64,000 nt of DNA from Escherichia phage HermannAdler_Bas98. Both the position numbers and the translations under genes were made by a program. A model generated the notes under the pieces. It saw only the letters and a list, made by a program, of their open reading frames with translations, did no database searches and was not told the DNA's origin. Of the stretch, positions 9,835 to 63,872 are shown piece by piece; position 1 is the first letter of the stretch; each line of letters starts with the position of its first letter. The stretch lies in the sequence record PQ850608.1; one strand, written 5' to 3'.

Positions 9835-9881
9835 ATAATTGCCGCCGTAACTGGCGGCCATCTCTCTGAGAGGAATCTGTA

Positions 9882-11297: not shown

Positions 11298-11299
11298 AC

Positions 11300-12890: not shown

Positions 12891-12891
12891 A

Positions 12892-13308: not shown

Positions 13309-13311
13309 ACT

Positions 13312-15492: not shown

Positions 15493-15496
15493 TAAT

Positions 15497-16369: not shown

Positions 16370-16371
16370 AT

Positions 16372-16893: not shown

Positions 16894-16950
16894 AATATTG
16901 CTTATAGACTCCTTATAGATTATAATTTGTTGATCAGATATAAGGAGTCT

Positions 16951-17679
16951 ATGATGGCAGAAAAGTTAACCCAACTTACAAGCCCCAACCAAACTGACAA
17001 ATCAAGTATGTTTGCCGCGCTGCAGGGAATGCTGGACCGTGGCAAGTATACCACTGACGGCATGATTCCTGCACAAGTAATATCTTATGACCGCAAACAG
17101 AATTTAGCAGTCATAAAGCCTGTTATTCATTTCGTAAGTCTTGATGATAAACCAGTGGAGCGTCAACCACTGGTGTCAATTCCTGTATTGGCAATCGGCG
17201 GCGGCGGCTTCGTAATCAACTTTCCTCTGAAAGAGGGTGATTTGGGCTGGATATTCGCTGGCGACCGCGAGTTGTCGACATTCCTTGAAGAATTGAAGCC
17301 GACCGCGCCTACCAATGGCCGCGCGAAAACTTTCGCTGATGGACTGTTCATACCGGATGTATTTCGAAAATACACCATAAGCGGAGAGGATGCAGGCTCA
17401 ATGGTGATCCAGTCACTCAGCGGCGCTGTCCGCATTGCATTAAGTGATGACTCGATAAACATAACTGCATCGGCTGGAGTAAATGTGAAAACACCAATAA
17501 CCACTATCGACCAACAATTGATAGTTAATGGAAAGGCAACGTTCAATGGTGGTATAGAAGGGAAAGAAGGAACGACGGCAACGCTTCCGACTGGTACAAC
17601 AATCGGCGGCACAAATGTATCCACTCACGGTCACATAGGTAACGGACCTGGAAACAGAACTGGGGATATGATAGAATGA
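16951..17679 (+). CDS. putative baseplate spike / gpV-like assembly protein
   Basis: TAAGGAG RBS; AQVISYD...PLVSIPVLAIGGGGFVINFPLKEGDLGWIFAGD resembles gpV-type OB-fold spike. Confidence 0.45.
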   Translation: MMAEKLTQLTSPNQTDKSSMFAALQGMLDRGKYTTDGMIPAQVISYDRKQNLAVIKPVIHFVSLDDKPVERQPLVSIPVLAIGGGGFVINFPLKEGDLGWIFAGDRELSTFLEELKPTAPTNGRAKTFADGLFIPDVFRKYTISGEDAGSMVIQSLSGAVRIALSDDSINITASAGVNVKTPITTIDQQLIVNGKATFNGGIEGKEGTTATLPTGTTIGGTNVSTHGHIGNGPGNRTGDMIE

Positions 17680-18947: not shown

Positions 18948-18953
18948 GGAACT

Positions 18954-21692: not shown

Positions 21693-21702
21693 AGGAACGG
21701 CA

Positions 21703-23490
21703 ATGCCAACACTTATTAACAGACCTTTCGCGCAAAGCGGTGATGTATCCGTGGTGCCGGATGCAAGCCCAAGCGGTTATGTGAACTTCCAGCGCGGCTA
21801 CACCCCTGACTATGCACTTGCGCTGGAAGCCGGAAACGTCGCTGCGAAAGCAGTTGAACGTGAGTCGATGAACTGGTTGCTGAATCTGATCACCGACAAC
21901 CTTATGTTCATCCAGGACCACGGCGCTCAACAGTATTTCTCGTCTGACTTGAAGCCAGATGGATACCCGAAAAATGCCATCGTTGTCAGCAACTCTGGCA
22001 CCCCTTCAGCGCCTGAATGGCGCATTTTCCAGAGCGTGGTTGACGGCAACACCAGCGCAGTACCAGCTAACGGCGAAACGGAATCTTGGCAAGAATTGAC
22101 GCTGCCTAGCGAAGCGCGAAAATATATTCCTATGCCTGCTGGCGGCGATGCGCAAAACCCGTATTTTGTTCGCGGACTGATTTCAAACTTTGTGGACTTT
22201 GATAATATCACGACTTCCACAACTATTGTTATTCAATCTGACGCAGTCGCCGCTCTATGCTCTAACATCCCGAACGCGGTTGGTGCGACGAAGGTTGCAG
22301 GTCGTCTACAGGTTTGCGCTTGGCAGGTTGATGCGCAGACTTTCGCCCTGCAACAATACACGTCAATGAACGGATATGTTTTCACCCGCTCTTATACGTC
22401 TGGTGCTTGGAGTGCTTGGATTCAAAATGCAACTGTTCAAGACGTGCAAATCGGCACGCCGAATCTTGCATCAGGTAAAGGCGCACAAGATATAATCCTT
22501 ACCGTTCCGGCAGGTTATGCATGGCCGCCGTCAGCAGGTAGTCGCCTGACAATTGTCAATGATGTAACGACTACCGGACCTGTTACCGTGACCATTGGTG
22601 CAAACAAAGTTGCAGTCCTTGGATTCGACGGCGGCGAGCTGCCAGCAGGGTCCATCGTCGGCCTTCTTCCTTTTACTATTATTTATGACGGCACCGTTTG
22701 GCGTCTTCTTCAAGCATTCGGCGCGGCGCAAATCGGTGTCGATGCTAGTGAGCCGCAACAGTTTGTTACAAAGCGCCAACTCGATGCTCTGGCCGCGAAG
22801 TTGATCACTATGGGTGATGTGTTCGAAGTCGGTGAGACTCGATTCTTGACTAATGGCACCAACCCAAATACTAAACTGGGCGCTTACGGTCAGGTATGGA
22901 CCAGATTGCCTGATAACATGGTCATCAGGACGTCTGGCACGGCAAGAAACGGTCTTGACACTGGAGGTGCAGACTCTGTTACTCTTACTGCCGCCATGCT
23001 TCCTCTGCACAATCACAGCGTGAACATAACTACGCGACAAAGTGGTCCATGGTCCAATACCACTGGAGACGCAGGCAACCATAACCACACAGGCGATACC
23101 AGTCAAAACGGTGCTCACGTGCACGGAATGGATTCAGCAGGTAACCACCACCATGACAGTAGCTGGGGTGAAGCAAATACGAATGATGCGCGGTATGGCG
23201 TGTATGATGGGACGCACAACAACTTCGGAAGTCGAAAGGGCGGCGACTGGGACAACTATAAATACAACACCTCAACTAACGGCAACCACGTTCACAATAT
23301 TCAATCTTCTGGGTCACACACTCATGGGTTGAATATAAATTACGCTGGCAATCACAGCCATGGATATACCCTCCCCGCTCACACTCACGATGTGGTCGGT
23401 AACACTGGCGATGCAGGGCAGTCCGTCCCAACGGCTGTTTCAACTCTGCCGCGATATGTCGTCTTGAACGGCTGGTACAGAAGCGCATAA
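21703..23490 (+). CDS. tail fibre protein with C-terminal histidine-rich repeats
   Basis: GAGGAA RBS; C-terminal NHNHTGDTSQNGAHVHGM...NHHHDS...HTHGLNINYAGNHSHGYTLPAHTHDV repeats. Confidence 0.55.
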   Translation: MPTLINRPFAQSGDVSVVPDASPSGYVNFQRGYTPDYALALEAGNVAAKAVERESMNWLLNLITDNLMFIQDHGAQQYFSSDLKPDGYPKNAIVVSNSGTPSAPEWRIFQSVVDGNTSAVPANGETESWQELTLPSEARKYIPMPAGGDAQNPYFVRGLISNFVDFDNITTSTTIVIQSDAVAALCSNIPNAVGATKVAGRLQVCAWQVDAQTFALQQYTSMNGYVFTRSYTSGAWSAWIQNATVQDVQIGTPNLASGKGAQDIILTVPAGYAWPPSAGSRLTIVNDVTTTGPVTVTIGANKVAVLGFDGGELPAGSIVGLLPFTIIYDGTVWRLLQAFGAAQIGVDASEPQQFVTKRQLDALAAKLITMGDVFEVGETRFLTNGTNPNTKLGAYGQVWTRLPDNMVIRTSGTARNGLDTGGADSVTLTAAMLPLHNHSVNITTRQSGPWSNTTGDAGNHNHTGDTSQNGAHVHGMDSAGNHHHDSSWGEANTNDARYGVYDGTHNNFGSRKGGDWDNYKYNTSTNGNHVHNIQSSGSHTHGLNINYAGNHSHGYTLPAHTHDVVGNTGDAGQSVPTAVSTLPRYVVLNGWYRSA

Positions 23491-23498
23491 GGTGATTT

Positions 23499-24143
23499 AT
23501 GATTAATGCAAACGTAATATCTAAAGGGACCGGATGCAGCATGGATGTTGCTGAAAAATGGGTCGACCCCTTCAAGCAGGCTTGTGAGCACTACGGAATC
23601 AAAAGCAAGAATGCCATCGCTGCGCTGCTTGCAAACGTAGGAGTGGAAACAGGCAGTCTGAAGACCTTTGTGGAAAACCTGAATTATTCCGCTCAAGGTC
23701 TTGCTAATACGTGGCCTAGCCGTTACAGCGCCAGCGGTCGTTTCGGTGGCGCACCAAACTCCTTGGCATTGTCGATTGCCCGTAAACCAATGGAAATCGC
23801 CAATAATACATATGCAAACCGAATGGGAAATGGTTCGGTAGCATCTGGCGACGGTTGGAAGTACCGTGGCCGTGGTGCCATTCAGCTGACTGGAAAGGAT
23901 AACTATGCAGAGTATTCAAAGCAATCAGGGTATGACGCATTGAATAACCCTGACATTTTGACTGAGCCGAAATACATTGCTGACAGCGCGGCATGGTTCT
24001 TCAAGAACAGCGGTTGCATTCCACTTGCCGATGCGGGCGCATTTGATTCGACCGTGAAGCGGATTAACGGGGCCGCGCCAAATACGGCTAACCATGGGGA
24101 TTTGCGACGGAAGCGTTACAAGGAAGCACTAGCAGTTATGTAA
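23499..24143 (+). CDS. endolysin, glycoside hydrolase family 19 (chitinase-like lysozyme)
   Basis: AALLANVGVETGSL and YRGRGAIQLTGKDNY match GH19 catalytic blocks. Confidence 0.7.
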   Translation: MINANVISKGTGCSMDVAEKWVDPFKQACEHYGIKSKNAIAALLANVGVETGSLKTFVENLNYSAQGLANTWPSRYSASGRFGGAPNSLALSIARKPMEIANNTYANRMGNGSVASGDGWKYRGRGAIQLTGKDNYAEYSKQSGYDALNNPDILTEPKYIADSAAWFFKNSGCIPLADAGAFDSTVKRINGAAPNTANHGDLRRKRYKEALAVM

Positions 24144-24144
24144 G

Positions 24145-24175
24145 AAAAGGCCCATATGGGCCTTTGTTTATTTTA
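24145..24175. terminator. bidirectional terminator between convergent modules
   Basis: Perfect palindrome AAAGGCCCATATGGGCCTTT followed by T-rich tract. Confidence 0.55.
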
Positions 24176-24398
24176 CGGCTTCAACCTGGACGGGCGGCGC
24201 GGAACTTGTATCGATGTCTGGCAAGTCGAAGTAATACCCCGCCATGCCAATCACGCCAACAATCGCGGCCCGTGCCACCTTGTTGCTAATTGACTCCCCA
24301 ATAAGCTTTACCAACAGGGACAAGATTTGAGACGTCAAAGCCTTTTTCAGCCTTTTGTTTTCTTCCAAATCTTTCTGCATAACTACCACCCATGTCAA
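24168..24398 (-). CDS. small membrane protein (possible holin)
   Basis: 76 aa; hydrophobic segment AAIVGVIGMAGYYF; adjacent to endolysin. Confidence 0.3.
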   Translation of the reverse strand: MTWVVVMQKDLEENKRLKKALTSQILSLLVKLIGESISNKVARAAIVGVIGMAGYYFDLPDIDTSSAPPVQVEAVK

Positions 24399-24937
24399 CG
24401 CACATCCTGTGTCTTAACATTACCTGAAGCATCTCTTAATGGCAGTGGATAGTAGGCCATTTGGTAGTCTGATACGCCTTCAACATGATAAAACACGATT
24501 ACGTCTTTGCTGTTGATGAGCATGTTAACGACATCTGATTTATCTTCTGGAGTGAGTATGAGTGCGCCGCCTGTCCTGCTGTCTACTGCAACAGGGTATG
24601 TCTTATCGACAAGGCCGCTGTCCAATGTATTATACCTGACAACGATTTCAGGGGCATCAACTTTTGCAATTGACATTCCGAACACAAACGACACGACTTG
24701 GCGACCGCGATCATTCATTACGCACATCTTTTCCTTGTCAAACCTTTCCTTTATCACATCGTATTTATTCCAGCAAAATTCGAACGATTGGCCGTTGTTA
24801 AAATATCTCGTTAACACTTTGGCATTACTATTTGGCGGCGTAAACATACTTTCAGCCGCTGCACTTTTGGTGAAGAACAAAACTGTCAGCATAGCCATGA
24901 TGATGATCAAAACAATCTTTAAGTTTTTCGATTTCAT
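24395..24937 (-). CDS. secreted protein of unknown function
   Basis: N-terminal signal peptide MKSKNLKIVLIIIMAMLTVLFFTKSAAA. Confidence 0.5.
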   Translation of the reverse strand: MKSKNLKIVLIIIMAMLTVLFFTKSAAAESMFTPPNSNAKVLTRYFNNGQSFEFCWNKYDVIKERFDKEKMCVMNDRGRQVVSFVFGMSIAKVDAPEIVVRYNTLDSGLVDKTYPVAVDSRTGGALILTPEDKSDVVNMLINSKDVIVFYHVEGVSDYQMAYYPLPLRDASGNVKTQDVR

Positions 24938-54529: not shown

Positions 54530-54790
54530 ATTCATACGTATCATGACGTATCATTGGGCTATTGATTTATAAGGAAAAATACGCTGATACGGATGATACG
54601 GGTGCAAACATAATATATATAGAATTCCAGAAAATTAATTAACTCCATTTTGAATTAATTTAAATTAATTTTTTTCTACATCCTCATACTTATACTAAAC
54701 TTATATTCATACGTATCATCCGTAAGATATAAGTAAAAACAAGGACTTGCGGCAATACGGATGATACGTCATGATACGCTTCGACCAGCC
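54530..54790. repeat. iteron / AT-rich module B (homologous to 2205-2480)
   Basis: CATACGTATCATGACGTATCAT, GATACGGATGATACG, AT-rich core with GAATTC and AATTAATTTAAATTAATTTTTTT, then CATACGTATCATCCGTA and AATACGGATGATACGTCATGATACG. Confidence 0.7.
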
Positions 54791-54943
54791 AGCAGCGGCT
54801 AAGTCATTGATTTGCATAGCAAGCGGCGAAAGGGATGGATTTCTTTTATACGTATCAAACAGTACACCACGCACCACGGTCCGCAATCCTATTTGCAATA
54901 TGATTTGTGTACGTTTATAGCCATAATGAACATCAATCTGCAC

Positions 54944-54972
54944 TTGAATATAATGTCCATCCATTGTATAAT
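54944..54972 (+). promoter_or_regulatory. sigma70-type promoter candidate
   Basis: TTGAAT - 17 nt - TATAAT. Confidence 0.45.
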
Positions 54973-54992
54973 TCACACTATTAATTTGCACT

Positions 54993-55481
54993 ATGGGATT
55001 TTGCACTATGAGTCAAGATTATGTAGCGATGCCTGAAGACTTTGAAGACCCGCGATTCGCAGAGCACAATCAGGCTTTATTCGATGAGTTCATTGACCTT
55101 GTTATTCAGGGTCATGACATGCGCGCAGCTTTTGCACTAGTATTTGGAATGGAAGTTGCAACGGATAACTACACTGGCCAGCGAATCCTTTGCACGCAAC
55201 GCAATCCATACTACAAGATGCGCTTCAAAAAGCGTATGGAAGAGATGCCACTCAAGGATTTGTGGAGCGTAAAAGGTGCAATTCACAATTTGGTCAAGCT
55301 TGTGCGTGATCCAGAAGTCGCGGCGTCAGCCAAGCTTAATGCTATTCGTGAACTGAATATCATCTACGGCATCACGATGATTGATGAAAACGGCAATAGT
55401 AAAATGGGCCGTTCTATGGACGATTTCTACAAGGATTTTGGAGAGGCTGCCAAAGAAGGAGAGCAATTCTCCCGCCACTAG
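54993..55481 (+). CDS. hypothetical protein (possible helix-turn-helix; terminase small subunit-like)
   Basis: 162 aa ORF; no Shine-Dalgarno; the repeat motif TTTGCACTATG lies on its start region; functional call speculative. Confidence 0.4.
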   Translation: MGFCTMSQDYVAMPEDFEDPRFAEHNQALFDEFIDLVIQGHDMRAAFALVFGMEVATDNYTGQRILCTQRNPYYKMRFKKRMEEMPLKDLWSVKGAIHNLVKLVRDPEVAASAKLNAIRELNIIYGITMIDENGNSKMGRSMDDFYKDFGEAAKEGEQFSRH

Positions 55482-55500
55482 CCAATTTGCACTATAAAAC

Positions 55501-55534
55501 GGCCCTAGAACACATGTTCTCCACTTCTAGGGCC
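55501..55534 (+). terminator. stem-loop (possible terminator)
   Basis: GGCCCTAGAA - 14 nt - TTCTAGGGCC; no T tract. Confidence 0.35.
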
Positions 55535-55595
55535 ATCGGTAATACGACGGGGAAGGTCGCACCCATAAACGCGTTAGAAAGTGTATTATTATAAG

Positions 55596-55859
55596 TCATC
55601 TTTTAGTCGCTTTACGTAACAATTTACGACCTTCAACCGTCCAATCGAACGACTCCACCAGCAGATTCGCACTATAACCTAAGACGATGCGCCCTTTCTC
55701 GTTATCGACCCGCCAACAAGTCTCGAATAGCATTCGATTTGCACTATTAACTATTGCCGCAACGCGCGTAGGGTAAGCGCAATTTGCACTATGGTCGTAA
55801 AGGGATAAGGTGCGACCACTTCCGATGGACAATGTAGCGATGAGAATAAGCGTATTCAT
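55596..55859 (-). CDS. hypothetical protein (doubtful ORF within repeat array)
   Basis: 87 aa ORF with GGTGG RBS, but contains three motif copies (translated as SAN). Confidence 0.3.
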   Translation of the reverse strand: MNTLILIATLSIGSGRTLSLYDHSANCAYPTRVAAIVNSANRMLFETCWRVDNEKGRIVLGYSANLLVESFDWTVEGRKLLRKATKR

Positions 55860-55909
55860 AAGCCACCAATTTGCACTATGAAAAGCGACCCCGAAGGGCC
55901 GCCATTCGA

Positions 55910-56536
55910 TTAGATAATCTGGAAGGTGTAGGACTTGTTGCCGAACTCGAAGTTCAAGCGTCCAGCTTCTTTAAGCTTCATGCGGAAGCGAATGTGCTTG
56001 CTATCCGGTAATCCCAGCGCGGCGAAGGCTACGCGGACCGATTTGAACTCGCCTACACCCTCGACCATAACGCCGTTACGGGTGAGACGCTTTTGCGCCA
56101 CTTCCTTATTATCCCAACTTTTTGCAATACCTTCGCTATTCGAACGGCGATGGGAAGGAGTTCCATTTTGCACTACGCAATTTGCACTATCGTTTAAGCC
56201 GCTCTTAACGAAGGCTTCATACTCTTCATCGCTCATCGCGTCGAGTTCTTCCTGGGTCGGCTCAGCCTTTTTAACGACCGCACGCGCCTTATGCGTTTTT
56301 ACATCACTGGACACTTCCTCACGCGGCTTCGCGTCGGGAATGGGCGATTCGTTGGACGGCTCATCGAGCGCGTTTAAGGACTCGATTAACGCGATTACGC
56401 GAGTCTCGGCGGTCCGGCGGTCCGCAAATTTCTTAATCGGCTTCGAACCGGAATTTGCATTATAAAATGCAACGAGGTCGGCGGTCTTAGTTGCGATAAC
56501 GTCGCCGCTAGTAGAAAAGCGATTTAAGCTAACCAT
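55910..56536 (-). CDS. hypothetical protein (candidate DNA-binding protein of the island)
   Basis: 208 aa; RBS context AGGAGTTTATTATGG identical to the next gene; two motif copies inside coding sequence. Confidence 0.5.
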   Translation of the reverse strand: MVSLNRFSTSGDVIATKTADLVAFYNANSGSKPIKKFADRRTAETRVIALIESLNALDEPSNESPIPDAKPREEVSSDVKTHKARAVVKKAEPTQEELDAMSDEEYEAFVKSGLNDSANCVVQNGTPSHRRSNSEGIAKSWDNKEVAQKRLTRNGVMVEGVGEFKSVRVAFAALGLPDSKHIRFRMKLKEAGRLNFEFGNKSYTFQII

Positions 56537-56616
56537 AATAAACTCCTATTTGTTAGGGCGCTAGGCGCGAAAGAATTTTATTAAAGCGCCGCGCACGACG
56601 CTCTAAAAATCCTCTC

Positions 56617-56931
56617 TTACTCTTCGTCGTCTTCGATTAATTCGAGGGCGAAGGCGTAAGCTTTGCTATCGTAATTAACTAAAACGGCGAGTTCGAACTC
56701 GTTAATAAACGCCGTTTTACCGCATAAATTTAATTCCGCATCGACTTCGAAGAATCCGTTTTCGTCGCGCTCTAAGCGAGAAGCAGCGAGTTGCTCGATT
56801 ACCGTCGCGTCGTTAATTTCTTCGCCTAAGCGAACGCCGGAGAATTTCGCGAGAATTTCGCCGTAAGTAAGCGTAACGCCCTGGACTTCGGCGGCGGCGT
56901 TTTCGAGGGTAAAGCGGGTAACGATAGCCAT
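56617..56931 (-). CDS. small very acidic protein (104 aa)
   Basis: 22 Asp/Glu vs 7 Lys/Arg; AGGAGTTTATTATGG start context; C-ending codon bias distinct from neighbouring early genes. Confidence 0.6.
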   Translation of the reverse strand: MAIVTRFTLENAAAEVQGVTLTYGEILAKFSGVRLGEEINDATVIEQLAASRLERDENGFFEVDAELNLCGKTAFINEFELAVLVNYDSKAYAFALELIEDDEE

Positions 56932-56999
56932 AATAAACTCCTAGTTGGGAGAGGCGTTAACGACCTATTCGTTAACTCATCCCGTCCCGATATGAGTAC

Positions 57000-57027
57000 A
57001 TTATAATATAGTGTAGAAAAAAGTAAA
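57000..57027 (-). promoter_or_regulatory. promoter cassette copy (minus strand) driving 56617-56931
   Basis: Minus strand reads GTGCTTTACT - 16 nt - TATAAT ... ATATCGGGACGGG, matching the two plus-strand cassettes. Confidence 0.5.
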
Positions 57028-57071
57028 GCACTTTTTCGATAAAAATGCGATAAATTATTTTATCTTTTTTC

Positions 57072-57099
57072 TTTACTTCTTCGTACACTCGCGTATACT
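57072..57099 (+). promoter_or_regulatory. promoter cassette copy driving 57156-57458
   Basis: CTTTACTTCTTCGTACACT ... TATACT (16 nt spacer) ... TTTATATCGAGACGGG. Confidence 0.5.
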
Positions 57100-57155
57100 T
57101 GTTTATATCGAGACGGGCGATGGCCCTTTCTTCTACTAGCATCGGGAGCTTTATT

Positions 57156-57458
57156 ATGACTACTTTAATCTCTTCCATCCTTACTTACGACGAAGACCGC
57201 TTAACCGTTCGCTCTCTTATCGCCGCCGTTAACGCGGAACTAGAATCTAGCGCCATTAAGGTCCGCGCGGTCGCCTTCATCGGCCTTTCCTTCGACGATA
57301 TGAAGTATGCCGAACGTAGCGCCATCCGCTTCGCGAAGACCGACGACGAAGCCGTTACCCTTATCGAGACGGTTACGCCGCGCGGCGAAGCGTTAATTAT
57401 CGTCGAGTATATCGACGTAGAAGGCGATAAATCTTATAAACATTTTATCGCAGAATAA
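57156..57458 (+). CDS. small acidic protein (100 aa)
   Basis: 18 Asp/Glu vs 11 Lys/Arg; C-ending codon bias. Confidence 0.6.
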   Translation: MTTLISSILTYDEDRLTVRSLIAAVNAELESSAIKVRAVAFIGLSFDDMKYAERSAIRFAKTDDEAVTLIETVTPRGEALIIVEYIDVEGDKSYKHFIAE

Positions 57459-57470
57459 CGAAAAAAGTGC

Positions 57471-57499
57471 TTTACTTCTTCGTACACTAAGACTATAAT
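57471..57499 (+). promoter_or_regulatory. promoter cassette copy driving 57567-57857
   Basis: GTGCTTTACTTCTTCGTACACT ... TATAAT (17 nt spacer) ... TTTATATCGAGAGGGG. Confidence 0.55.
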
Positions 57500-57566
57500 G
57501 TTTTATATCGAGAGGGGATGAGGTAGCGAATAGGTCACTACCCTCCCGACTAACTAGGAGAATATT

Positions 57567-57857
57567 ATGATTACTTTAGCCGCTATCCGTTCCGCTCGCG
57601 TCGAAACTTCCGAAAACTCTAACGTATTTGGCGAAAAACTTAAAAACGTTTATCTCTTTAACGTAGATGCGACTATCGAGGAGCTTCACAGTCCTATCGA
57701 TTTTAGCGAATTTACGGAACTCGAAGAGGAAGATATTTCTACCTTCCGCGTTACTATCGAAGGCAAGGTTTATTTTGCTACGGAGTTCGGCGGCGAATAT
57801 CTCGCGGTATCCGAAGGCGAAGGCCGTTACTCTTTCTTTAAAATCGTTTCCTTATAA
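57567..57857 (+). CDS. small acidic protein (96 aa)
   Basis: 18 Asp/Glu vs 8 Lys/Arg; TAGGAG RBS. Confidence 0.6.
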   Translation: MITLAAIRSARVETSENSNVFGEKLKNVYLFNVDATIEELHSPIDFSEFTELEEEDISTFRVTIEGKVYFATEFGGEYLAVSEGEGRYSFFKIVSL

Positions 57858-57877
57858 TACCCTTCCGTTACTAATAG

Positions 57878-57900
57878 GCCGCGCTTAGTCGCGGCTTTTC
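57878..57900 (+). terminator. rho-independent terminator
   Basis: GCCGCG-CTTAGT-CGCGGC followed by TTTT. Confidence 0.6.
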
Positions 57901-57904
57901 TTCG

Positions 57905-58555
57905 TCCCTATCTCGATGCGCTCCTACGCGAAAACTCCTTTATCCTTCCCTTCGTCGTCGCATAATCTTCTTCGAGATGCGTCTTAGTTCGCATAACAGG
58001 TATTACGTTAAATGGAGAACATCGCGTAAGTCCTTGTTTTATATAGACACCTATATCGGACCGTTAGGGCGGGTCGCGTAAGTCGTTGTTTTATAAAGGC
58101 ACAAAACTTTCCCTTCGTTCCGAACTAAAACGAGAAATATGCCGACCCTTCGCCCGAAAATAGTACGTATGCGAAATTACATTCATCTCGAATAATCCCT
58201 CCCGATATTATCCTACACGCAATCATTCGCTTTCGAATCATTATGCTTCATATTATTATGCGTCGAATCATTCGCTTTCGAATTGTAACGCTGGAAACTG
58301 TAACGTCGATTGATTATTGCGTTCGTGTGGTTTTTATGGCATGGGTCTTTTGGTGCGTTTTGCTACTTGATGGAATTTGCGGTACACTAATCAAAATACG
58401 ACACATTTGGTCCACTAACTTTTCAAAGAAAAAGTCCTAGACAGTACCGTACTATTTTGTACCCACAGGAAATTTGCAGTACACTCCTGAGCGGCAGGCA
58501 AAATAAAGGGCCGCACTAAGCGACCCACGATTCACGGTTAAATCAGCAACACCCA
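57905..58555. repeat. noncoding repeat-rich region
   Basis: No credible ORF; duplicated GCGTAAGTC(C/G)TTGTTTTATA, duplicated AATCATTCGCTTTCGAAT (ATTCG...CGAAT arms), duplicated TTTGC(G/A)GTACACT. Confidence 0.55.
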
Positions 58556-58936
58556 CTATTCGCTCTTATGGGCATCACCAAAGCCATCCGCAATCTGGCT
58601 GATCAATGATTCAATGGACACAGTTTTACCAATTGATCGAGCGGTAATAGCAAGCATATTATCAATCAAACCATGATTGGATGCATATGGTCCAGGTTTT
58701 GAATCATCTTCAGGACAACCAAAAAGCTGGTCGCGCAAACTTTCGAGAGAACGCTCAATATTTTCCAGCTTCTCTTCTAAATCAGATTGGCGACGTAAAA
58801 CCCATGTTAAGTCTCGGTTGCCGACTTCCAATCCATCGAAATCGCAAGCTGGAACGTCAATTTTAATACTTGGATTAAAAGCAGTACCGCTGCCTTTAGT
58901 ATATTTGTGGTGATTGCGATCAATAGTTTGTGACAT
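58556..58936 (-). CDS. hypothetical protein
   Basis: Start MSQTIDR chosen (AAGGT RBS). Confidence 0.45.
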   Translation of the reverse strand: MSQTIDRNHHKYTKGSGTAFNPSIKIDVPACDFDGLEVGNRDLTWVLRRQSDLEEKLENIERSLESLRDQLFGCPEDDSKPGPYASNHGLIDNMLAITARSIGKTVSIESLISQIADGFGDAHKSE

Positions 58937-59030
58937 ATCATTACCTTTAATATTTGGGTGATTAACAATAACTATAATAAAGCCGCATAGCGCGGCATTC
59001 AAATCGGTTTGTTAATTGTAACGATTGAAT

Positions 59031-59126
59031 TTACTTATCCAACCAATCAATAAGCGCAATCATAGCAACAACAAATACTGCGCTGATTGCTAATATGATC
59101 AAGAACATCACAAAATCAACATTCAT
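59031..59126 (-). CDS. small membrane peptide (31 aa)
   Basis: MNVDFVMFLIILAISAVFVVAMIALIDWLDK; overlaps upstream gene end. Confidence 0.3.
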   Translation of the reverse strand: MNVDFVMFLIILAISAVFVVAMIALIDWLDK

Positions 59127-59352
59127 CAATCGATACCAATTGTGCAGGGTCGCCGGATACAGTTGCGCCGATGATACCCATATGAGAGAAAAATTCTGAA
59201 TAAACTTCTTTCCAGTACTTGCGCGCAGCTTTCTGGGCTTGCCCTTTGCGCTTGTAGCTTTTACCTTGGAAGATGAAGCGGTCGTTTGCTGCGTTATATT
59301 CCACCACACCTTCCAGCCATTGTAAGAAAGCTACTGATTCATTTTGATTCAT
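59116..59352 (-). CDS. hypothetical protein
   Basis: 78 aa ORF. Confidence 0.45.
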   Translation of the reverse strand: MNQNESVAFLQWLEGVVEYNAANDRFIFQGKSYKRKGQAQKAARKYWKEVYSEFFSHMGIIGATVSGDPAQLVSIDEC

Positions 59353-59359
59353 GTTAACC

Positions 59360-59755
59360 TCAACAATCTAATAAGAAAATTTTTAACCAGCTTTCTGCAA
59401 CCTCGCGGCCCGTAGCCAATCGGTCGGTATTTTCCATTGGTCTGGATTTACCGCATGGCAATCCTTTCTGTAGTTGTGTCCCACTGCCAATTCTTATCCA
59501 AATTTCCCCATCCTTGTCGACGTAGGCTTGGCAACCCATAATATCAAGTCTACTCATTAGGGTGTTAAAAACCTTGAGCCTTTCTTTGGCGATGTTGGCT
59601 GTTCCTCCATTTCTTGGACCACGGCGATTAACAGTCCGCTTCACAACCGGAATATCATTGGTGCGTCGCGGCTTGGGGCGGTAGTAGGCTTCTTCACCAG
59701 GAGTGACACCTGGCGTCAGTTCGCGCTTAAGCGCCTTTTCAATATCAATGATCAT
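59360..59755 (-). CDS. hypothetical protein
   Basis: 131 aa basic ORF. Confidence 0.5.
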   Translation of the reverse strand: MIIDIEKALKRELTPGVTPGEEAYYRPKPRRTNDIPVVKRTVNRRGPRNGGTANIAKERLKVFNTLMSRLDIMGCQAYVDKDGEIWIRIGSGTQLQKGLPCGKSRPMENTDRLATGREVAESWLKIFLLDC

Positions 59756-59849
59756 GATTTATGCCGCAGCAGCGTGGATGATTGCGTAAACTATGCCAAA
59801 CAGGGCAACAACACAAACTGTGCCCCAAAATGCAAAGCGTCGTGCCTCT

Positions 59850-60146
59850 TTATCCATTAGAGCCTTCTCCGCTGTTAATGTTGTCCAGAATCAAGGTTGG
59901 AATTTCATCTTGAGTCCTGACTTTGTAATGCGAAGGCATTTTGCTTTCTAACAATGCTTGTTCAGCTTCTCCCTTTGTCTCAAAGAGCGGGATGCACCAA
60001 TCAACTGCATTGCCGTGTTCATCACCCTTGACGGCTTTCAAAAAGACAAGGCGCTTGTCTTCAGGGTCGATGCCGCAAATTAAGTATTTTGGAAGAGCTT
60101 TTGCTTTTTGAGCTTTATCAATATCTTCAAATTTCATTTCATTCAC
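59850..60146 (-). CDS. hypothetical protein
   Basis: 98 aa ORF immediately downstream of tail fibre gene. Confidence 0.5.
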   Translation of the reverse strand: MNEMKFEDIDKAQKAKALPKYLICGIDPEDKRLVFLKAVKGDEHGNAVDWCIPLFETKGEAEQALLESKMPSHYKVRTQDEIPTLILDNINSGEGSNG

Positions 60147-60220
60147 CTCACTTGTTAACGTATAATGAGTATAACTTAATAGTGAATAAAGTAAAGGCGC
60201 TTTTCAGCGCCTTGAGTGAA

Positions 60221-62554
60221 TTATTTCGCTGCTTTCAGCGCGGCTATCTCTGCCTCTAGTGACTCGACCTTTTTCATCAACTCCTGCACCACGTGCATCG
60301 TATCCAAAAGCATAGGTGTGGTGTCAAGTTGCTTTTGCTCGACCTCTACACCTTCACTCGGATAAAACTTCACCGTTTTTACATACAACGGGTCGATTAT
60401 CTCTGCTTTTTGAGCGATGATGCCCCTTCTTACCCTTTCCTTTTCATCATTGTTGTAGATGAACGTTACATACTCCAGCGATGAAAGGTTGCTCCATGCT
60501 TTTTCAACCGTTCCTGGTTGTATGTCATGCTTCAAATTCTCATCAGAGATGGCATTCTTCTGAAGAGTGTAAAAGCTATCTGATCCAAGAATTGACACAG
60601 AGAAAAATACATCATGAGAGTTAGGCTGTATGTTCATCCTTGTCTGGTACTGAGCGTTGTCATCACCAACAACAAGCCAAGTCCCCTGCGCAAAACTTCC
60701 GTTATTATTATGGATCAAACCGTGATGAAGAGTGGTTGCATAGCCTGTATCTACTTGTTGACCGCCGCTGAAAAGGCTGTTGAATGCATAGTTTTGACCT
60801 ATTGACTGTCTCACCGTTGCATAAGTGCCGATTCTTGTGCCAGTCTCGCTCCAAGACATGAGACTTCCATATCTCGCAGCAAATCTGTCACTGCTAAGGG
60901 TGCCCGCATCGTCAAATGCAAGGTCTTTAGTCACCCCTTTTGTTTTATTGTACACAGACAGGATTGCATAATAAAACCCATCCATGTATGCATCACACCG
61001 CAATCCAGCATCCGCTTCAACAACAGCACCAATTTTGTATTGTGCTCTTACCTGCCCTGAAGATGCCTTGACTCCTGAACCTGGGCGAACAGCATCAGCA
61101 TTGATTACTTGCCATTGCGTATTCGCGGCAACAAATCCACCCGATGCACGAATCACCCAAACGCCGACAAAGTTGCGCGGAACGATTTCCGCTGCTGAAC
61201 GACCATAAACAGGACTGCAGCGAGAAGCGTCAAAGTTTGTTTGTATGAATCTTGACCCAGAGCCTGCTGCCGCAGGAGAGTCACCCGAAGTTATTGACTG
61301 AAAAGCACCATTAGTTGCCACCTGGCTTGGTGCAGAAGCCAGCGTCACCATTGTGTGCGGCGCTGCGTAAGTTATATTTGGCGCGCCTGATTCAGACACG
61401 ATACCGTTGGCTGATGAATTACCGCCATCACCTCTTCCAAACAAGGCCTGTATGGAACCAGTTTGAACACCGTTCCTGTCAGGCACTCGAAACGTCGTCG
61501 TTCCGTTACCCAGAGAATACTTGCCGCGTTTCGCTGGGTCCGCTAACCAATCTGCATCTGCAATAGGTGAAAGCATTTGCGCATACGCCCAAAGCTCAGG
61601 CCAATCCGCTCGATTCAGCAATTGCCCATCAGCAACGACTTCATACGGTTGAATATATGCACGACTGTCGCGTAAGTGGAAGTCGCCGACGCCATAGTTC
61701 ATAACACCGTTCATGCTTGGGCCAACGGTGCCTGTGTTTACTAAGTTCTCAACCCAACGCTTGGTCGCGGCATCATAATCGTTAACTGGGTCACCAGCCA
61801 GTGGCGTTGAACCTTGTGGGCGAATATTTAACCATGCTTGCGCATTATCTGCTGAGCCTGTGCCGCCCATGGAAGTTGGAACGATGTCTTGATCAGCAAC
61901 AGTCCCGAATCCAAAAGCAGACTTCATCCCTTGGATTGTCGTTTGGCCTGTGCCGCCATTAGCTACTGGGATTATGCTTGACTCGGAATAAATCATGACC
62001 CAAGGAGACCATGATTGAGTTTCCATGGTGAATCTTCTTTGATATGTATTGTTGGAATCGAATGTCGTATATCGCTGAATGCAACTTTCTGATATAACGC
62101 CTGTCTGCAATACTTCTAATACTCCTGCTTGCTGCGCAGGGTAATTCAAAGCTGAAGATGCACCACCGTTTGAATTTTGGAAGTACTGCCCAAACCAAGT
62201 CCCTGTAAGCGCATTAAGATTCATGCCGGATGGAACAATCCCAAAGTTTCGGACAGTACCCGTCAAAGTCGCGGCAGTTGTTCGAATGGAAAGCATATCG
62301 CCAGCCTCCCATGCACGCGCTGCAGTTCCTTCCTGTGCACGCTGTACTGTCAGCACGTTTCCAACCACGGCTGTTACTGTGACGATTTCGAATTGGAGGC
62401 CTGTTGCAGCGTCGACGATTGTCGCCACTACACGCTCATTTGCACTCAAGGTCGGAAAGCCCGACCCTGAGCGAATTGTGATTGTGGTGTCTGAAGTCGT
62501 CATTGGTTGGGCAAGCGCGACCTCAAAGTTGTTTTTGAATATTAGCCTTGGCAT
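60221..62554 (-). CDS. tail fibre protein with C-terminal intramolecular chaperone (peptidase S74-like) domain
   Basis: 777 aa; PVANGGTGQTT fibre motif; C-terminal ...AISDENLKHDIQP...coiled-coil tail resembles self-cleaving chaperone domain of endosialidase-type fibres. Confidence 0.6.
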   Translation of the reverse strand: MPRLIFKNNFEVALAQPMTTSDTTITIRSGSGFPTLSANERVVATIVDAATGLQFEIVTVTAVVGNVLTVQRAQEGTAARAWEAGDMLSIRTTAATLTGTVRNFGIVPSGMNLNALTGTWFGQYFQNSNGGASSALNYPAQQAGVLEVLQTGVISESCIQRYTTFDSNNTYQRRFTMETQSWSPWVMIYSESSIIPVANGGTGQTTIQGMKSAFGFGTVADQDIVPTSMGGTGSADNAQAWLNIRPQGSTPLAGDPVNDYDAATKRWVENLVNTGTVGPSMNGVMNYGVGDFHLRDSRAYIQPYEVVADGQLLNRADWPELWAYAQMLSPIADADWLADPAKRGKYSLGNGTTTFRVPDRNGVQTGSIQALFGRGDGGNSSANGIVSESGAPNITYAAPHTMVTLASAPSQVATNGAFQSITSGDSPAAAGSGSRFIQTNFDASRCSPVYGRSAAEIVPRNFVGVWVIRASGGFVAANTQWQVINADAVRPGSGVKASSGQVRAQYKIGAVVEADAGLRCDAYMDGFYYAILSVYNKTKGVTKDLAFDDAGTLSSDRFAARYGSLMSWSETGTRIGTYATVRQSIGQNYAFNSLFSGGQQVDTGYATTLHHGLIHNNNGSFAQGTWLVVGDDNAQYQTRMNIQPNSHDVFFSVSILGSDSFYTLQKNAISDENLKHDIQPGTVEKAWSNLSSLEYVTFIYNNDEKERVRRGIIAQKAEIIDPLYVKTVKFYPSEGVEVEQKQLDTTPMLLDTMHVVQELMKKVESLEAEIAALKAAK

Positions 62555-62592
62555 TTTACGGTCCTCGTTTTGTCGACAACCGTATTATAACC

Positions 62593-62934
62593 TTAATTTC
62601 TTTTGAGAGGAATATGACGGTGGCCGCCATTATTTGGTTTAATAATGAGCATAAAAACGATTAGAAAGATGATGGCTGATATACTTAATTCAATCAGCGC
62701 GGCTTGAGATATAGATTGATCTTCATGATACTGCTTTTGCATTTCCGCTTTCTTCTGAGCGCAAACTTCAGGTGATATGTAATCTCCTTTTGAGTTGCCA
62801 TAATAAATTTCGCCGTTTTCAGAAATCAGTCTGCCGCAAATATCCGTTTCAGCCTTTGCACTTGACATCATAATAACGGTGCCGATAATAGCGGCGATGG
62901 TCCAAATTAACAGTTGTGATAAAGTGTTGTTCAT
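62593..62934 (-). CDS. membrane-anchored exported protein
   Basis: AAGAGG RBS; signal peptide MNNTLSQLLIWTIAAIIGTVIMMSSAKA; C-terminal TM ALIELSISAIIFLIVFMLI. Confidence 0.5.
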   Translation of the reverse strand: MNNTLSQLLIWTIAAIIGTVIMMSSAKAETDICGRLISENGEIYYGNSKGDYISPEVCAQKKAEMQKQYHEDQSISQAALIELSISAIIFLIVFMLIIKPNNGGHRHIPLKRN

Positions 62935-62951
62935 GATAACCTCTTTAAATT

Positions 62952-62972
62952 CCCTTCCCATTTCGGGAAGGG
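62952..62972 (-). terminator. stem-loop (possible terminator/attenuator)
   Basis: CCCTTCCC-ATTTC-GGGAAGGG. Confidence 0.35.
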
Positions 62973-63130
62973 TGATAATCATTTTACGCGAAAGAATAGG
63001 CGCGTGCCACACAGCGAGTCCCAACGGCCCTCACCATCCCATATCGACCCAACACCAGCAGTGATTGGGCCAGCAGAATTGGCGGCATTGGCCCAGGCGA
63101 GACGTTTCAACTTCCAACTGCACCAACGAT

Positions 63131-63364
63131 TCACAGTTCGCCTCCAGACTGCAAAATCAGACCCGCATAGAGGATTGCCAGAGCTAAAGGCGCACCGCTT
63201 CCAGCCTCTCTATTCTCTTTAATTTGAAGCGTGTCCTTAAGGAATTGCAATTGAACGTTGAATTCATTTTCAATCCCAAGCACCACGGCCAATTCTTTTA
63301 CAGAATCTGCATATGCCTTATCTAGCACTTCTTTTGGTACTTTTAAAGTTAATTCACTTGCCAT
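63131..63364 (-). CDS. small protein with C-terminal hydrophobic segment
   Basis: ATG 63364; PLALAILYAGLILQ. Confidence 0.4.
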   Translation of the reverse strand: MASELTLKVPKEVLDKAYADSVKELAVVLGIENEFNVQLQFLKDTLQIKENREAGSGAPLALAILYAGLILQSGGEL

Positions 63365-63575
63365 TTTCTTTCCACTCCACAAATGTGCTGCCGCTTGTTT
63401 CTCTGTTTAGCAGGTATCTGCCGCGCATCCCATGAAGGCTGAACTCAACCGTCGATGGATTAGATTTTGAAAGCCATATAGGTTGCCCGTCGAATGGACC
63501 GCCTACGCATGTATATTTCGCTTTTGGCTCACTCCTTTTGGGACGTTTTGCCCGCTCTTTGATTGATAGTCTCAT
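63354..63575 (-). CDS. hypothetical basic protein
   Basis: 73 aa ORF. Confidence 0.45.
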   Translation of the reverse strand: MRLSIKERAKRPKRSEPKAKYTCVGGPFDGQPIWLSKSNPSTVEFSLHGMRGRYLLNRETSGSTFVEWKENGK

Positions 63576-63790
63576 CAGTCTTCACCTTGAGATTCCAGAC
63601 AAGTAAGGACAAGCCACGTCATCGGAAGAATCAAAACCAGAGAAATGAGGGACCAGATAGACCAGCACAAGATGACAGACTTAAATGTGTGAACGTCGCC
63701 AAACGCAGCAGTAAAACAGAATCCCATTACGAATGCAATAGCTGTGGAATGGTTATCTATGGCTTTGATGGCACGGTCGATGAGTTTCAT
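63575..63790 (-). CDS. small membrane protein with two predicted TM segments
   Basis: IAFVMGFCFTAAFG and ILCWSIWSLISLVLILPMTWLVLTCL. Confidence 0.45.
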   Translation of the reverse strand: MKLIDRAIKAIDNHSTAIAFVMGFCFTAAFGDVHTFKSVILCWSIWSLISLVLILPMTWLVLTCLESQGED

Positions 63791-63872
63791 ATTACCTCCG
63801 GTTTTGAGTTAATATGATTATAACGCAGACTTTCAGAAAGGCAAACTTTTTGTGAATTTTAATCAAAAAAAT

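What the first reader, a model, noticed from the sequence alone, without database searches (positions are those of the whole stretch)
58556..63790. Separate minus-strand tail-fibre locus with self-chaperoning fibre and flanking membrane proteins
A 777 aa fibre (60221-62554) with a C-terminal intramolecular-chaperone-like domain is encoded about 37 kb from the main tail module and on the opposite strand. Immediately upstream is an exported membrane-anchored protein (62593-62934) and other small membrane proteins. A membrane or lipoprotein gene next to the receptor-binding gene is the arrangement of phage T5 llp beside pb5, where it blocks the receptor for superinfection exclusion. The locus may be an exchangeable host-range module.
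Basis: partly seen in the sequence, partly recalled or inferred. Interest (0 to 1): 0.5.

Follow-up and report, generated by a model that had tools for sequence, protein, structure and literature searches.

The report
Known Wifcevirus host-range tail fibre locus
This is the already described variable "T-shaped" tail fibre gene of a Wifcevirus-type E. coli phage. The small membrane-protein gene beside it is a conserved genus-specific gene that shows none of the testable hallmarks of a T5 Llp-like receptor blocker.

Summary
A 777-aa fibre ORF lies at 60221-62554(-). It has a Peptidase_S74 intramolecular-chaperone domain with an invariant Ser670/Lys675 pair. It sits in a minus-strand block apart from the tail module and is flanked by small hydrophobic proteins.

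The window is a Wifcevirus-like myophage, 94% nt identical to Bas100. Humolli et al. 2025 described this fibre for the genus: baseplate anchor, Gp12-like RBD1, T5-like RBD2 and chaperone domain, with O-antigen as receptor. Residues 196-561 closely match the O-antigen-specific LtfA of siphophage DT57C.

The "exchangeable module" idea is supported, but the cassette is intragenic (about 60255-62180). It lies between conserved arms and excludes the neighbouring genes.

The Llp analogy fails every test I could run:
- The 113-aa protein (62593-62934) has no lipobox.
- It is predicted to be anchored by a C-terminal transmembrane helix.
- It is 96-99% identical in all 15 relatives compared in detail, and 95.6-99.1% in all 28 database records, whatever the fibre allele or host.
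- It has no homologue outside the genus and no structural match.
- It lies next to a glycan-binding fibre, not a protein-receptor binder.

Its function stays unknown. Published mass spectrometry places the orthologous fibre in CsCl-banded particles but also detects chaperone-domain peptides in abundance, so processing is unproven. Low novelty.

The parts
63817..63844 (-). Sigma-70-like promoter candidate (TTGCCT-16-TATAAT) upstream of the first gene of the fibre transcription unit
   Evidence: Consensus scan, 10 of 12 matches. Prediction only.
63575..63790 (-). 71-aa hydrophobic protein (m71), first gene of the unit. Genus-restricted and 96-100% conserved.
   Evidence: Hydropathy. tblastn finds only 28 Wifcevirus records. 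pN/pS 0.04.
63354..63575 (-). 73-aa basic soluble protein (phrog_12090, function unknown)
   Evidence: pN/pS 0.10.
63131..63364 (-). 77-aa protein, function unknown
   Evidence: pN/pS 0.16.
62979..63134 (-). 51-aa ORF (GTG start), annotated in relatives
   Evidence: pN/pS 0.10.
62593..62934 (-). 113-aa membrane protein (mem113). It has a signal-like or first transmembrane helix, a roughly 47-aa periplasmic loop with 2 Cys, a C-terminal transmembrane helix and a basic tail. No lipobox. Genus-restricted orphan.
62180..62554 (-). Fibre residues 1-125: conserved N-terminal anchor domain and left recombination arm
   Evidence: 92-97% identical in 15 relatives over residues 1-100. Mean pairwise column identity stays at 0.81 or above through residue 125. 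Matches the N-terminus of the fibre in PDB 8jov (18 chains) and fibres of Ralstonia GP4, Bcep22-like, Klebsiella and Yersinia phages, with no Pbunavirus among the 45 of 153 records listed.
61955..62179 (-). Fibre residues 126-200: variable region 1, similar to the R2-pyocin fibre domain
   Evidence: Mean pairwise identity 0.44-0.62. Residues 102-189 match PDB 6ct8 and 6cl6.
61055..61954 (-). Fibre residues 201-500: Gp12-like/LtfA-like receptor-binding region. It has a conserved core (201-375) and a variable patch (376-450).
   Evidence: Residues 196-561 align closely with DT57C LtfA 502-876 (whole-protein E 1.9e-141). Conservation profile. pS 0.58 against about 0.21 in the flanks. Pfam Collar is below threshold (E 0.067).
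60548..61054 (-). Fibre residues 501-669: hypervariable distal domain, called 'T5-like RBD2' in the literature
   Evidence: Mean identity 0.17-0.34. Residues 562-669 give no hit in 12 of 15 relatives. Homologues occur in 544 phage records of several morphotypes. My own model was unusable.
60224..60547 (-). Fibre residues 670-777: intramolecular chaperone domain (Peptidase_S74). Ser670 is codon 60545-60547 and Lys675 is codon 60530-60532. Predicted cleavage between Ile669 and Ser670. The last 11 codons form the right recombination arm.
60194..60213 (-). Terminator-like hairpin directly after the fibre stop codon
   Evidence: A terminator is annotated at the same place in WFC. 94-98% nt identity in most relatives (91.5% in Bas100).
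59850..60137 (-). 95-aa soluble protein (p95), variable or absent among relatives. Its orthologue was detected in CsCl-banded vB_Eco4M-7.
59759..59857 (-). 32-aa single-transmembrane peptide
   Evidence: pN/pS 0.19.
59360..59755 (-). 131-aa basic protein. This window carries an allele only 64-67% identical to the alleles of all 15 relatives.
59116..59352 (-). 78-aa protein (weak match to phrog_20882)
58556..58936 (-). 126-aa protein, last gene of the block
58508..58526 (-). Terminator-like hairpin closing the block, just outside the mapped terminal repeat (54647-58350)

Best explanation
The locus carries the variable lateral 'T-shaped' tail fibre gene of a Wifcevirus-type myophage. The gene sits in a leftward transcription block between the terminal repeat and the terminase gene.

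Shown:
- The protein is a mosaic. It has a conserved N-terminal anchor (1-125), an R2-pyocin-like variable domain, a Gp12-like region closely matching DT57C LtfA, a hypervariable distal domain, and a Peptidase_S74 chaperone domain with an invariant Ser670 and Lys675.
- Orthologues are abundant in purified particles.
- Variation is confined to the inside of the gene, between arms conserved at DNA level.

Inferred:
- Trimers fold with the help of the C-terminal chaperone domain, which then cuts itself off between Ile669 and Ser670.
- The fibre docks on the baseplate through its N-terminus and binds O-antigen.
- The conserved second fibre, encoded in the tail module, has a fixed role.
- Host range changes by homologous recombination that swaps intragenic segments with fibres of unrelated phages.

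The flanking small genes are conserved, genus-specific core genes. They are neither part of the cassette nor matched to the receptor. The 113-aa protein is most likely an inner-membrane protein with a small disulfide-bonded periplasmic domain that acts on a conserved host envelope component. Its role is unknown, and it is not an Llp/Cor-type receptor-blocking lipoprotein.
For: Genome identity: 94% nt to Bas100, and all top hits are Wifcevirus. The locus order is the same in 15 relatives.

Fibre domains:
- PF13884 and phrog_6921 end to end.
- PDB sequence matches to DT57C LtfA, the 8jov fibre N-terminus and the R2 pyocin fibre.
- A chaperone-domain profile hits LtfA, MYRF, 8jov, 6f45 and the GA-1 neck-appendage chain 3gud. 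Residue 1 of 3gud aligns with Ser670.
- S-[DG]-x3-K is invariant in 16 alleles that are otherwise 29-99% identical.

Mosaicism and junctions:
- Per-segment identities and the conservation profile.
- Nucleotide homology resumes about 35 nt before the stop codon in every divergent allele and runs through the terminator.
- The distal module is shared with 544 phage records.

Literature:
- The T-shaped dual-domain fibre, its dependence on O16 O-antigen and its horizontal transfer (PMC11990801).
- Recombination inside ltfA switches O-antigen specificity (PMC4728585).
- The orthologous fibre is the top-scoring protein in CsCl-banded vB_Eco4M-7 and is present in ECML-117 (PMC7048862).

mem113: no lipobox, 96-99% identity everywhere, pN/pS 0.04, no homologue beyond the genus in 5.8 billion clustered or 1.84 billion representative proteins, and no fold match.
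Against: - Cleavage and release of the chaperone domain are not shown. In the published data for vB_Eco4M-7, 500 of 2013 fibre spectra come from the chaperone part. That preparation also held scaffold/protease and helicase peptides, so it was not pure mature virions.
- My monomer model of residues 541-777 was unusable (pLDDT 46). The 'T5-like' fold of this allele's distal domain therefore rests on the literature for other alleles.
- The O-antigen receptor is inferred from relatives, not tested for this phage.
- Promoters and terminators are consensus predictions only.
- Nothing positive identifies the function of mem113.
Confidence: 0.85

Rival explanations
1. First reader's model. The 113-aa protein is an Llp/Cor-like factor that blocks this fibre's receptor, so that fibre and blocker form one exchangeable host-range and exclusion module.
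For: It lies directly upstream of, and is probably co-transcribed with, the fibre gene. It is exported or membrane-anchored with two periplasmic Cys, and Llp also has an internal disulfide. Exclusion genes next to receptor-binding genes are common in T5- and T1-like phages.
Against: - No lipobox, and a C-terminal transmembrane anchor.
- 96-99% identical across phages of O157, O16, Shigella and E. coli 4s hosts, while the fibre's receptor-binding parts are replaced.
- It lies outside the recombining segment.
- The receptor in close relatives is O-antigen, not a protein channel.
- No similarity to Llp or Cor in Pfam, PHROGs, NCBIfam, BFVD or PDB.
- In T5, llp pairs with pb5, not with the chaperone-bearing lateral fibre (plus my own knowledge).
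Confidence: 0.04
2. The conserved membrane proteins (mem113, possibly m71) exclude superinfecting phages at the inner membrane or periplasm. They would resemble T4 Imm/Sp or HK97 gp15 in function but not in ancestry, and would act on a step common to all Wifcevirus phages whatever the fibre allele.
For: Predicted inner-membrane topology with a small periplasmic domain. Strict conservation and strong purifying selection regardless of host. Not detected in particle preparations, unlike neighbouring gene products. A sigma-70-like promoter lies upstream.
Against: There is no homology or structural similarity to any known exclusion protein. There are no expression-timing data. Co-transcription with a late structural gene is unusual for such factors (my own knowledge). 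This is argued from topology only.
Confidence: 0.15
3. m71 and/or mem113 are the missing holin or antiholin of this phage group. No holin is annotated, and the endolysin has no export signal.
For: They are small proteins with one or two hydrophobic helices, and mem113 has a basic C-terminal tail. The endolysin (23499-24143) starts without a hydrophobic segment. No holin appears in the Bas100 annotation.
Against: They lie about 39 kb from the endolysin and spanin genes. A 70-aa hydrophobic ORF directly beside the endolysin is conserved in 325 records, including 289 Pseudomonas records (those listed are 60-67 kb Pbunavirus-type genomes) and 3 Pantoea records. In Pantoea phage PA1 the ORF next to the endolysin promotes lysis (PMC11538084), although I did not check its homology to the window ORF residue by residue. 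m71 and mem113 are found only in Wifcevirus records, whereas the lysis genes are shared with the wider group. A 47-residue loop is atypical for two-helix holins (my own knowledge).
Confidence: 0.08
4. The chaperone domain of this fibre is not released. It stays on the mature fibre, uncut or bound without a covalent link, as a permanent part of the distal tip.
For: In CsCl-banded vB_Eco4M-7, peptides from the chaperone part make up 25% of fibre spectra although that part is 14% of the length.
Against: - The Ser-Lys pair is invariant in 16 divergent alleles, as expected for an active autoprotease.
- The domain aligns from its Ser with the first residue of the GA-1 chain 3gud, which from my own knowledge is the released fragment.
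- The same preparation contained scaffold/protease and helicase peptides, so free fragments or immature particles may have been carried along.
- Spectral counts are not quantitative.
- The data come from a different chaperone allele (38% identity over 62% of the domain).
Confidence: 0.2

Closest known systems
T-shaped dual-receptor-binding-domain tail fibre of Wifcevirus phages (Gp114 of ManiWeber/Bas99; fibres of Bas100 and Bas101), Humolli et al. 2025, PMC11990801
   Same: Same gene at the same genomic position. Each segment is 96-100% identical to Bas100 and Bas101. It has the same conserved N-terminal anchor, variable binding domains and C-terminal chaperone domain.
   Different: The distal domain allele (562-669) differs from that of Bas99 and most other relatives, which give no detectable match. 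Nothing else differs in kind.
LtfA lateral tail fibre of T5-like siphophage DT57C (sequence deposited with PDB 8HQZ; Golomidova et al. 2016, PMC4728585)
   Same: Residues 196-561 align closely with LtfA 502-876, and both end in a Peptidase_S74 domain with a predicted cleavage motif. LtfA binds O-antigen, and recombination inside the gene switches its specificity.
   Different: LtfA attaches to a siphophage tail through a T5-type N-terminus and carries a second fibre, LtfB. This protein has a different N-terminal anchor and belongs to a myophage. The binding region of LtfA is not resolved in 8HQZ.
Intramolecular chaperone / Peptidase_S74 domains of K1F endosialidase, T5 Ltf (pb1), GA-1 neck appendage protein (3GUD) and MYRF (7DC3)
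   Same: Pfam hit above threshold, C-terminal position, S-x4-K pair and a terminal coiled coil.
   Different: Self-cleavage is untested here, and published mass spectrometry on a relative still detects the domain.
T5 Llp and T1/phi80 Cor superinfection-exclusion lipoproteins
   Same: A small exported protein encoded next to a receptor-binding gene, with two Cys in the exported part.
   Different: No lipobox, a C-terminal transmembrane anchor, no co-variation with the binding domain, a glycan-binding neighbour, and no sequence or fold similarity.

Membership tests
Peptidase_S74 / intramolecular chaperone domain | Profile match above the curated threshold at the C-terminus of a fibre or spike | tested here: met
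   PF13884, residues 670-722, 36.8 bits against a cut-off of 22. A profile of 7 alleles hits LtfA, MYRF 7dc3, 8jov, 6f45 and 3gud.
Peptidase_S74 / intramolecular chaperone domain | Catalytic Ser-Lys pair (S-x4-K) at the start of the domain | tested here: met
   Ser670 and Lys675 (SDENLK). They are invariant in 16 alleles of 29-99% identity. The Ser aligns with residue 1 of chain 3gud.
Peptidase_S74 / intramolecular chaperone domain | Self-cleavage and release after trimer folding | not testable with these tools
   Published shotgun data for a relative detect the domain's peptides in abundance (500 of 2013 spectra). No peptide spanning the site was found. Inconclusive.
Wifcevirus T-shaped dual-domain fibre | Orthology and synteny: the same gene between the terminal repeat and the terminase, with a conserved N-terminal anchor | tested here: met
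Wifcevirus T-shaped dual-domain fibre | Gp12-like first binding domain | tested here: inconclusive
   Residues 196-400 are 86-99% identical to relatives in which the domain was assigned. Pfam Collar is only E 0.067. No structure test succeeded.
Wifcevirus T-shaped dual-domain fibre | T5-like second binding domain (defined by structure only) | tested here: inconclusive
   The AlphaFold monomer model of 541-777 had pLDDT 46, so no fold search was run on it. Sequence homologues are fibres of T5-like and other phages.
Wifcevirus T-shaped dual-domain fibre | O-antigen as receptor | not testable with these tools
   Shown for Bas98-101 (O16) and for DT57C LtfA (O22-like) in the literature. Not tested for this phage.
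Llp/Cor exclusion lipoproteins | Lipoprotein signal peptide with a lipobox Cys | tested here: not met
   No [LVI][ASTVI][GAS]C motif in mem113 or in any of the ten small ORFs.
Llp/Cor exclusion lipoproteins | Encoded beside, and matched to, the binder of a protein receptor (FhuA, BtuB and similar) | tested here: not met
   The neighbour is an O-antigen-type fibre. mem113 is 96-99% identical whatever the fibre allele.
Llp/Cor exclusion lipoproteins | Sequence or fold similarity to Llp or Cor | tested here: not met
   No Pfam, PHROG or NCBIfam hit. Foldseek found nothing with E below 0.1 in BFVD or PDB, though the model's pLDDT is only 71.5.
Llp/Cor exclusion lipoproteins | Expression blocks adsorption or infection | not testable with these tools
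   Needs an experiment.
Holins (for m71 and mem113) | Small membrane protein encoded with the lysis genes that permeabilises the membrane | tested here: inconclusive
   Hydrophobic helices are present, but the genes lie about 39 kb from the endolysin. A conserved hydrophobic ORF sits beside the endolysin instead. Lethality was not testable.

The most novel reading that the evidence does not exclude
The strictly conserved, genus-restricted 113-aa inner-membrane protein, co-transcribed with the fibre, might be a new kind of exclusion or anti-readsorption factor. It would act on a host step shared by all hosts, for example phage DNA entry or a conserved inner-membrane step of O-antigen assembly, rather than on the variable receptor. 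That would give virulent O-antigen-dependent phages the receptor-inactivation strategy that Humolli et al. could not recognise.
Probability: 0.1. Interest if true: 0.6.

Novelty: already known. Interest (0 to 1): 0.15.

Why it matters
The fibre is the host-range determinant of a phage group of interest for biocontrol of E. coli O157 and for therapy. Locating the recombination arms (codons 1-125, and the last 11 codons plus the terminator) is practically useful for engineering fibre swaps. Beyond that, the locus adds nothing new in kind, because the architecture, receptor class and horizontal exchange are already published.

Two small open points remain:
- Is the chaperone domain really shed? 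Published mass spectrometry suggests it may not be.
- What do the strongly constrained, genus-specific membrane proteins do?

Tried and rejected
- Pfam, PHROGs and NCBIfam scans of all ten small ORFs gave nothing informative.
- Homologue searches for mem113 found only proteins at least 93% identical or its own cluster. The one other hit is a spurious ankyrin-repeat match.
- The AlphaFold model of mem113 (pLDDT 71.5) found no Foldseek match below E 0.1 in BFVD or PDB. The weak WW-domain resemblances are not meaningful.
- The AlphaFold monomer model of fibre residues 541-777, built from an 11-sequence alignment, had pLDDT 46. I abandoned it and ran no fold search.
- The u-spanin idea for mem113 (N-terminal signal plus C-terminal helix) was rejected. 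There is no lipobox, the loop is too short, and Rz/Rz1-type spanins are already annotated.
- I tested whether p95, directly downstream of the fibre, co-varies with the fibre. It does not: vB_Eco4M-7 has the same p95 (97%) but different fibre domains.
- A search of the published peptide tables for a peptide spanning the cleavage site (SISDER, CQEWR) found none, which is uninformative.
- PDB code 8JOV is not mentioned in the paper library. From memory it belongs to Ralstonia phage GP4. GP4 does carry the same N-terminal domain, but I do not rely on this.


Full report
What is there. The region 58556-63790 carries eleven minus-strand ORFs. The largest, 60221-62554, encodes 777 aa. It matches tail-fibre family phrog_6921 over its whole length (E 4e-200). 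It also has a Pfam Peptidase_S74 domain at residues 670-722, scoring 36.8 bits against a cut-off of 22. The stated coordinates, the fibre and its C-terminal chaperone-like domain are therefore real.

Which genome. The region is 94% nt identical to Escherichia phage HansTraber (Bas100), and 43 phage records match, essentially all Wifcevirus-type. The window starts at Bas100 position 4383 and ends 3 nt before that record's end, so it is the last 64 kb of a roughly 68.4 kb genome opened at the large terminase. The 3,673-bp direct terminal repeat of phage Mansfield maps to window 54647-58350. The minus-strand block thus fills the interval between the left terminal repeat and the divergently transcribed terminase and structural genes. 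In window coordinates the tail module is at 8296-23490(+), with a second fibre at 21703-23490. "37 kb away on the other strand" is correct for the window, but the short way round is about 14 kb to the sheath gene. The gene order is the same in all 15 relatives I retrieved.

The fibre is already described. Humolli et al. 2025 (PMC11990801) characterised Wifcevirus isolates Bas98-101. They describe two fibres. One is conserved and encoded in the tail locus. The other is a variable "T-shaped" fibre with an N-terminal baseplate anchor, a Gp12-like RBD1, a T5-like RBD2 and a C-terminal intramolecular chaperone. They also report total dependence on O16 O-antigen and scattered, horizontally transferred binding domains. 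The window's fibre is 96-100% identical, segment by segment, to those of Bas100 and Bas101.

My own domain evidence. I ran a sequence search against PDB chains.
- Residues 196-561 align closely with residues 502-876 of LtfA of the T5-like siphophage DT57C (whole-protein E 1.9e-141). The deposited 8HQZ model covers only the LtfA N-terminus.
- Residues 4-124 match the N-terminus of the "putative tail fiber protein" of 8jov, present as 18 chains.
- Residues 102-189 match R2-pyocin fibre structures.

LtfA determines specificity for O22-like or O87 O-antigen, and recombination within ltfA switches host range (PMC4728585). The anchor domain occurs in fibres of Ralstonia GP4, Burkholderia Bcep22-like, Klebsiella and Yersinia phages and of roughly 40-kb Pseudomonas siphophages. 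No Pbunavirus appears among the 45 of 153 records listed. The distal 237 residues have homologues in 544 phage records of several morphotypes.

Ser-Lys pair. The motif SDENLK places Ser670 and Lys675 at the start of the Pfam match. In a MAFFT alignment of 16 Wifcevirus fibres, S-[DG]-x3-K is invariant although the surrounding domain falls to 29% identity. A profile of seven alleles finds LtfA (5e-34), the MYRF autoprocessing domain 7dc3 (6e-12), 8jov (5e-10), 6f45 (7.5e-7) and the GA-1 neck-appendage chain 3gud (2e-4). The first residue of 3gud aligns with Ser670. From my own knowledge that chain is the released fragment, so I predict cleavage between Ile669 and Ser670.

Is it in virions, and is it processed? 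Necel et al. 2020 (PMC7048862) analysed CsCl-banded vB_Eco4M-7 and ECML-117. The orthologous fibre was the top-scoring protein in vB_Eco4M-7 (34 peptides, 80% coverage, 2013 spectra) and was also found in ECML-117. Six peptides from the chaperone part account for 500 of the 2013 spectra, although that part is 14% of the length. No peptide spanning the cleavage site was listed. The preparation also held scaffold/protease and helicase peptides. Presence in particles is therefore supported, but loss of the chaperone domain is not demonstrated. I give retention about 0.2.

An exchangeable module, but an intragenic one. The conservation profile shows conserved blocks at residues 1-125, 201-375, partly 451-500, and 751-777. 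The variable blocks are 126-200, 376-450 and 501-750. The variable segments assort independently. For example, phage kaset shares the distal domain and chaperone with the window (72% and 96%) but not residues 101-195 (52%). At the 3' end, nucleotide homology to the window resumes about 35 nt before the stop codon in every divergent allele. It then continues through the terminator hairpin at 94-98%. All alleles end in the same L(K/E)AEIAALKAAK tail. Mansfield's chaperone domain is LtfA-like up to that tail. Synonymous divergence in codons 201-375 (pS 0.58) is well above that of the flanking genes (about 0.21). The cassette is thus roughly 60255-62180, inside the gene.

Transcription (prediction only). 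There is a sigma-70-like site at 63844-63817 and a hairpin at 60213-60194 directly after the fibre stop; a terminator is annotated at the same place in WFC. Another promoter-like site lies at 60195-60168, and a closing hairpin at 58526-58508. This suggests two units. The first carries five small genes plus the fibre, and the second carries five small genes.

The membrane proteins. The 113-aa product of 62593-62934 has these features:
- a hydrophobic N-terminus with an AKA|ET site but no basic residues before it;
- a roughly 47-residue acidic loop with Cys33 and Cys58;
- a second hydrophobic segment (74-103) and a basic tail;
- no lipobox.

AlphaFold predicts helix 3-29, a small sheet and helix 55-97, with pLDDT 71.5. 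The topology I infer is an inner-membrane protein with a small periplasmic domain. The 71-aa and 32-aa ORFs are also hydrophobic.

Test of the Llp analogy. Llp is a lipidated outer-membrane lipoprotein encoded next to pb5, and it jams the protein receptor FhuA (PMC9586334). In the DT57C group, llp and the pb5 homologue hrs form one functional module. Here the results are as follows.
- mem113 is 95.6-99.1% identical in all 28 phage records that contain it, from hosts including O157:H7, K-12 with O16, Shigella flexneri and E. coli 4s.
- Across 15 loci it stays at 96-99%, while fibre segments drop to 29-50% or have no detectable match.
- pN/pS is 0.04, so it is a real, constrained gene.
- It lies outside the recombining segment.
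- It has no homologue outside the genus in 5.8 billion clustered proteins or 1.84 billion representatives. The only other hit is a spurious ankyrin-repeat match.
- No family matches and no fold matches.

Humolli et al. state that these O-antigen-dependent phages lack a recognisable receptor-inactivation strategy. From my own knowledge, the T5 counterpart of this fibre is the lateral fibre Ltf, not pb5. Membership in the Llp/Cor family therefore fails on every feature I could test. An exclusion function of some other kind is not excluded.

Other roles considered. The holin idea is weakened. A 70-aa hydrophobic ORF directly beside the signal-less endolysin is conserved in 325 records, including 289 Pseudomonas and 3 Pantoea records. 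The ORF next to the endolysin of Pantoea phage PA1 promotes lysis (PMC11538084). In contrast, m71 and mem113 are confined to Wifcevirus. Inner-membrane exclusion remains possible but rests on topology alone.

Verdict. The central object is published for near-identical phages, so novelty and interest are low. The residual curiosities are the unproven shedding of the chaperone domain and the unknown role of two strongly constrained, genus-specific membrane proteins.

Noticed in passing
window 63858-63865 (junction); compare L001 8723-8987: This genome lacks a 231-nt gene (Bas100_0111 / vB_Eco4M-7 gp32) that some relatives carry upstream of the 71-aa gene. In CsCl-banded vB_Eco4M-7 that 7.8-kDa product gave 390 spectra, so it may be an accessory particle protein.
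   Followed up: partly
window 59850-60137 (-): The 95-aa protein just downstream of the fibre is 97% identical to vB_Eco4M-7 gp26, which was detected in the banded preparation (89 spectra, 65% coverage). It is variable or absent among relatives and does not co-vary with the fibre.
   Followed up: partly
window 59360-59755 (-): The 131-aa basic protein is only 64-67% identical to the alleles in all 15 relatives. The first 45 or so residues are conserved and the rest has diverged, so this is a window-specific allele.
   Followed up: partly
window 24168-24380 (-), beside the endolysin at 23499-24143: A 70-aa ORF with one hydrophobic stretch is conserved in 325 phage records, including 289 Pseudomonas and 3 Pantoea records. 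No holin is annotated in Bas100. A neighbour of the endolysin in Pantoea phage PA1 was reported to aid lysis. This ORF is a candidate holin-like factor.
   Followed up: partly
window 24395-24937 (-): A 180-aa protein with a clear N-terminal signal peptide (MKSKNLKIVLIIIMAMLTVLFFTKSAAAES) is encoded next to the lysis region. Its function is unknown.
   Followed up: no
window 61430-61954 (-), fibre codons 201-375: Synonymous divergence among relatives is about 0.58 here, against about 0.21 in the flanking genes, although the protein is highly conserved. This suggests a different and deeper ancestry for the conserved core of the binding region.
   Followed up: partly
window 54647-58350: This stretch corresponds to the 3,673-bp direct terminal repeat predicted for phage Mansfield, and it contains the small terminase gene. 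By analogy the physical genome ends probably lie inside the window.
   Followed up: partly
window 21703-23490 (+): The conserved second fibre ends in a run of His-x-His motifs (HNHS, HNHT, HVHG, HHHD, HVHN, HTHG, HSHG, HTHD). This fits the T4 gp37-like metal-binding tip described in the literature.
   Followed up: no
L002 5484-7775 (Mansfield fibre): Mansfield was isolated on E. coli 4s, which is also a host of DT57C. Its fibre has a chaperone domain very close to that of DT57C LtfA until the last 20 or so residues, where it switches to the Wifcevirus-specific tail. This looks like a visible recombination junction linked to a shared host.
   Followed up: partly
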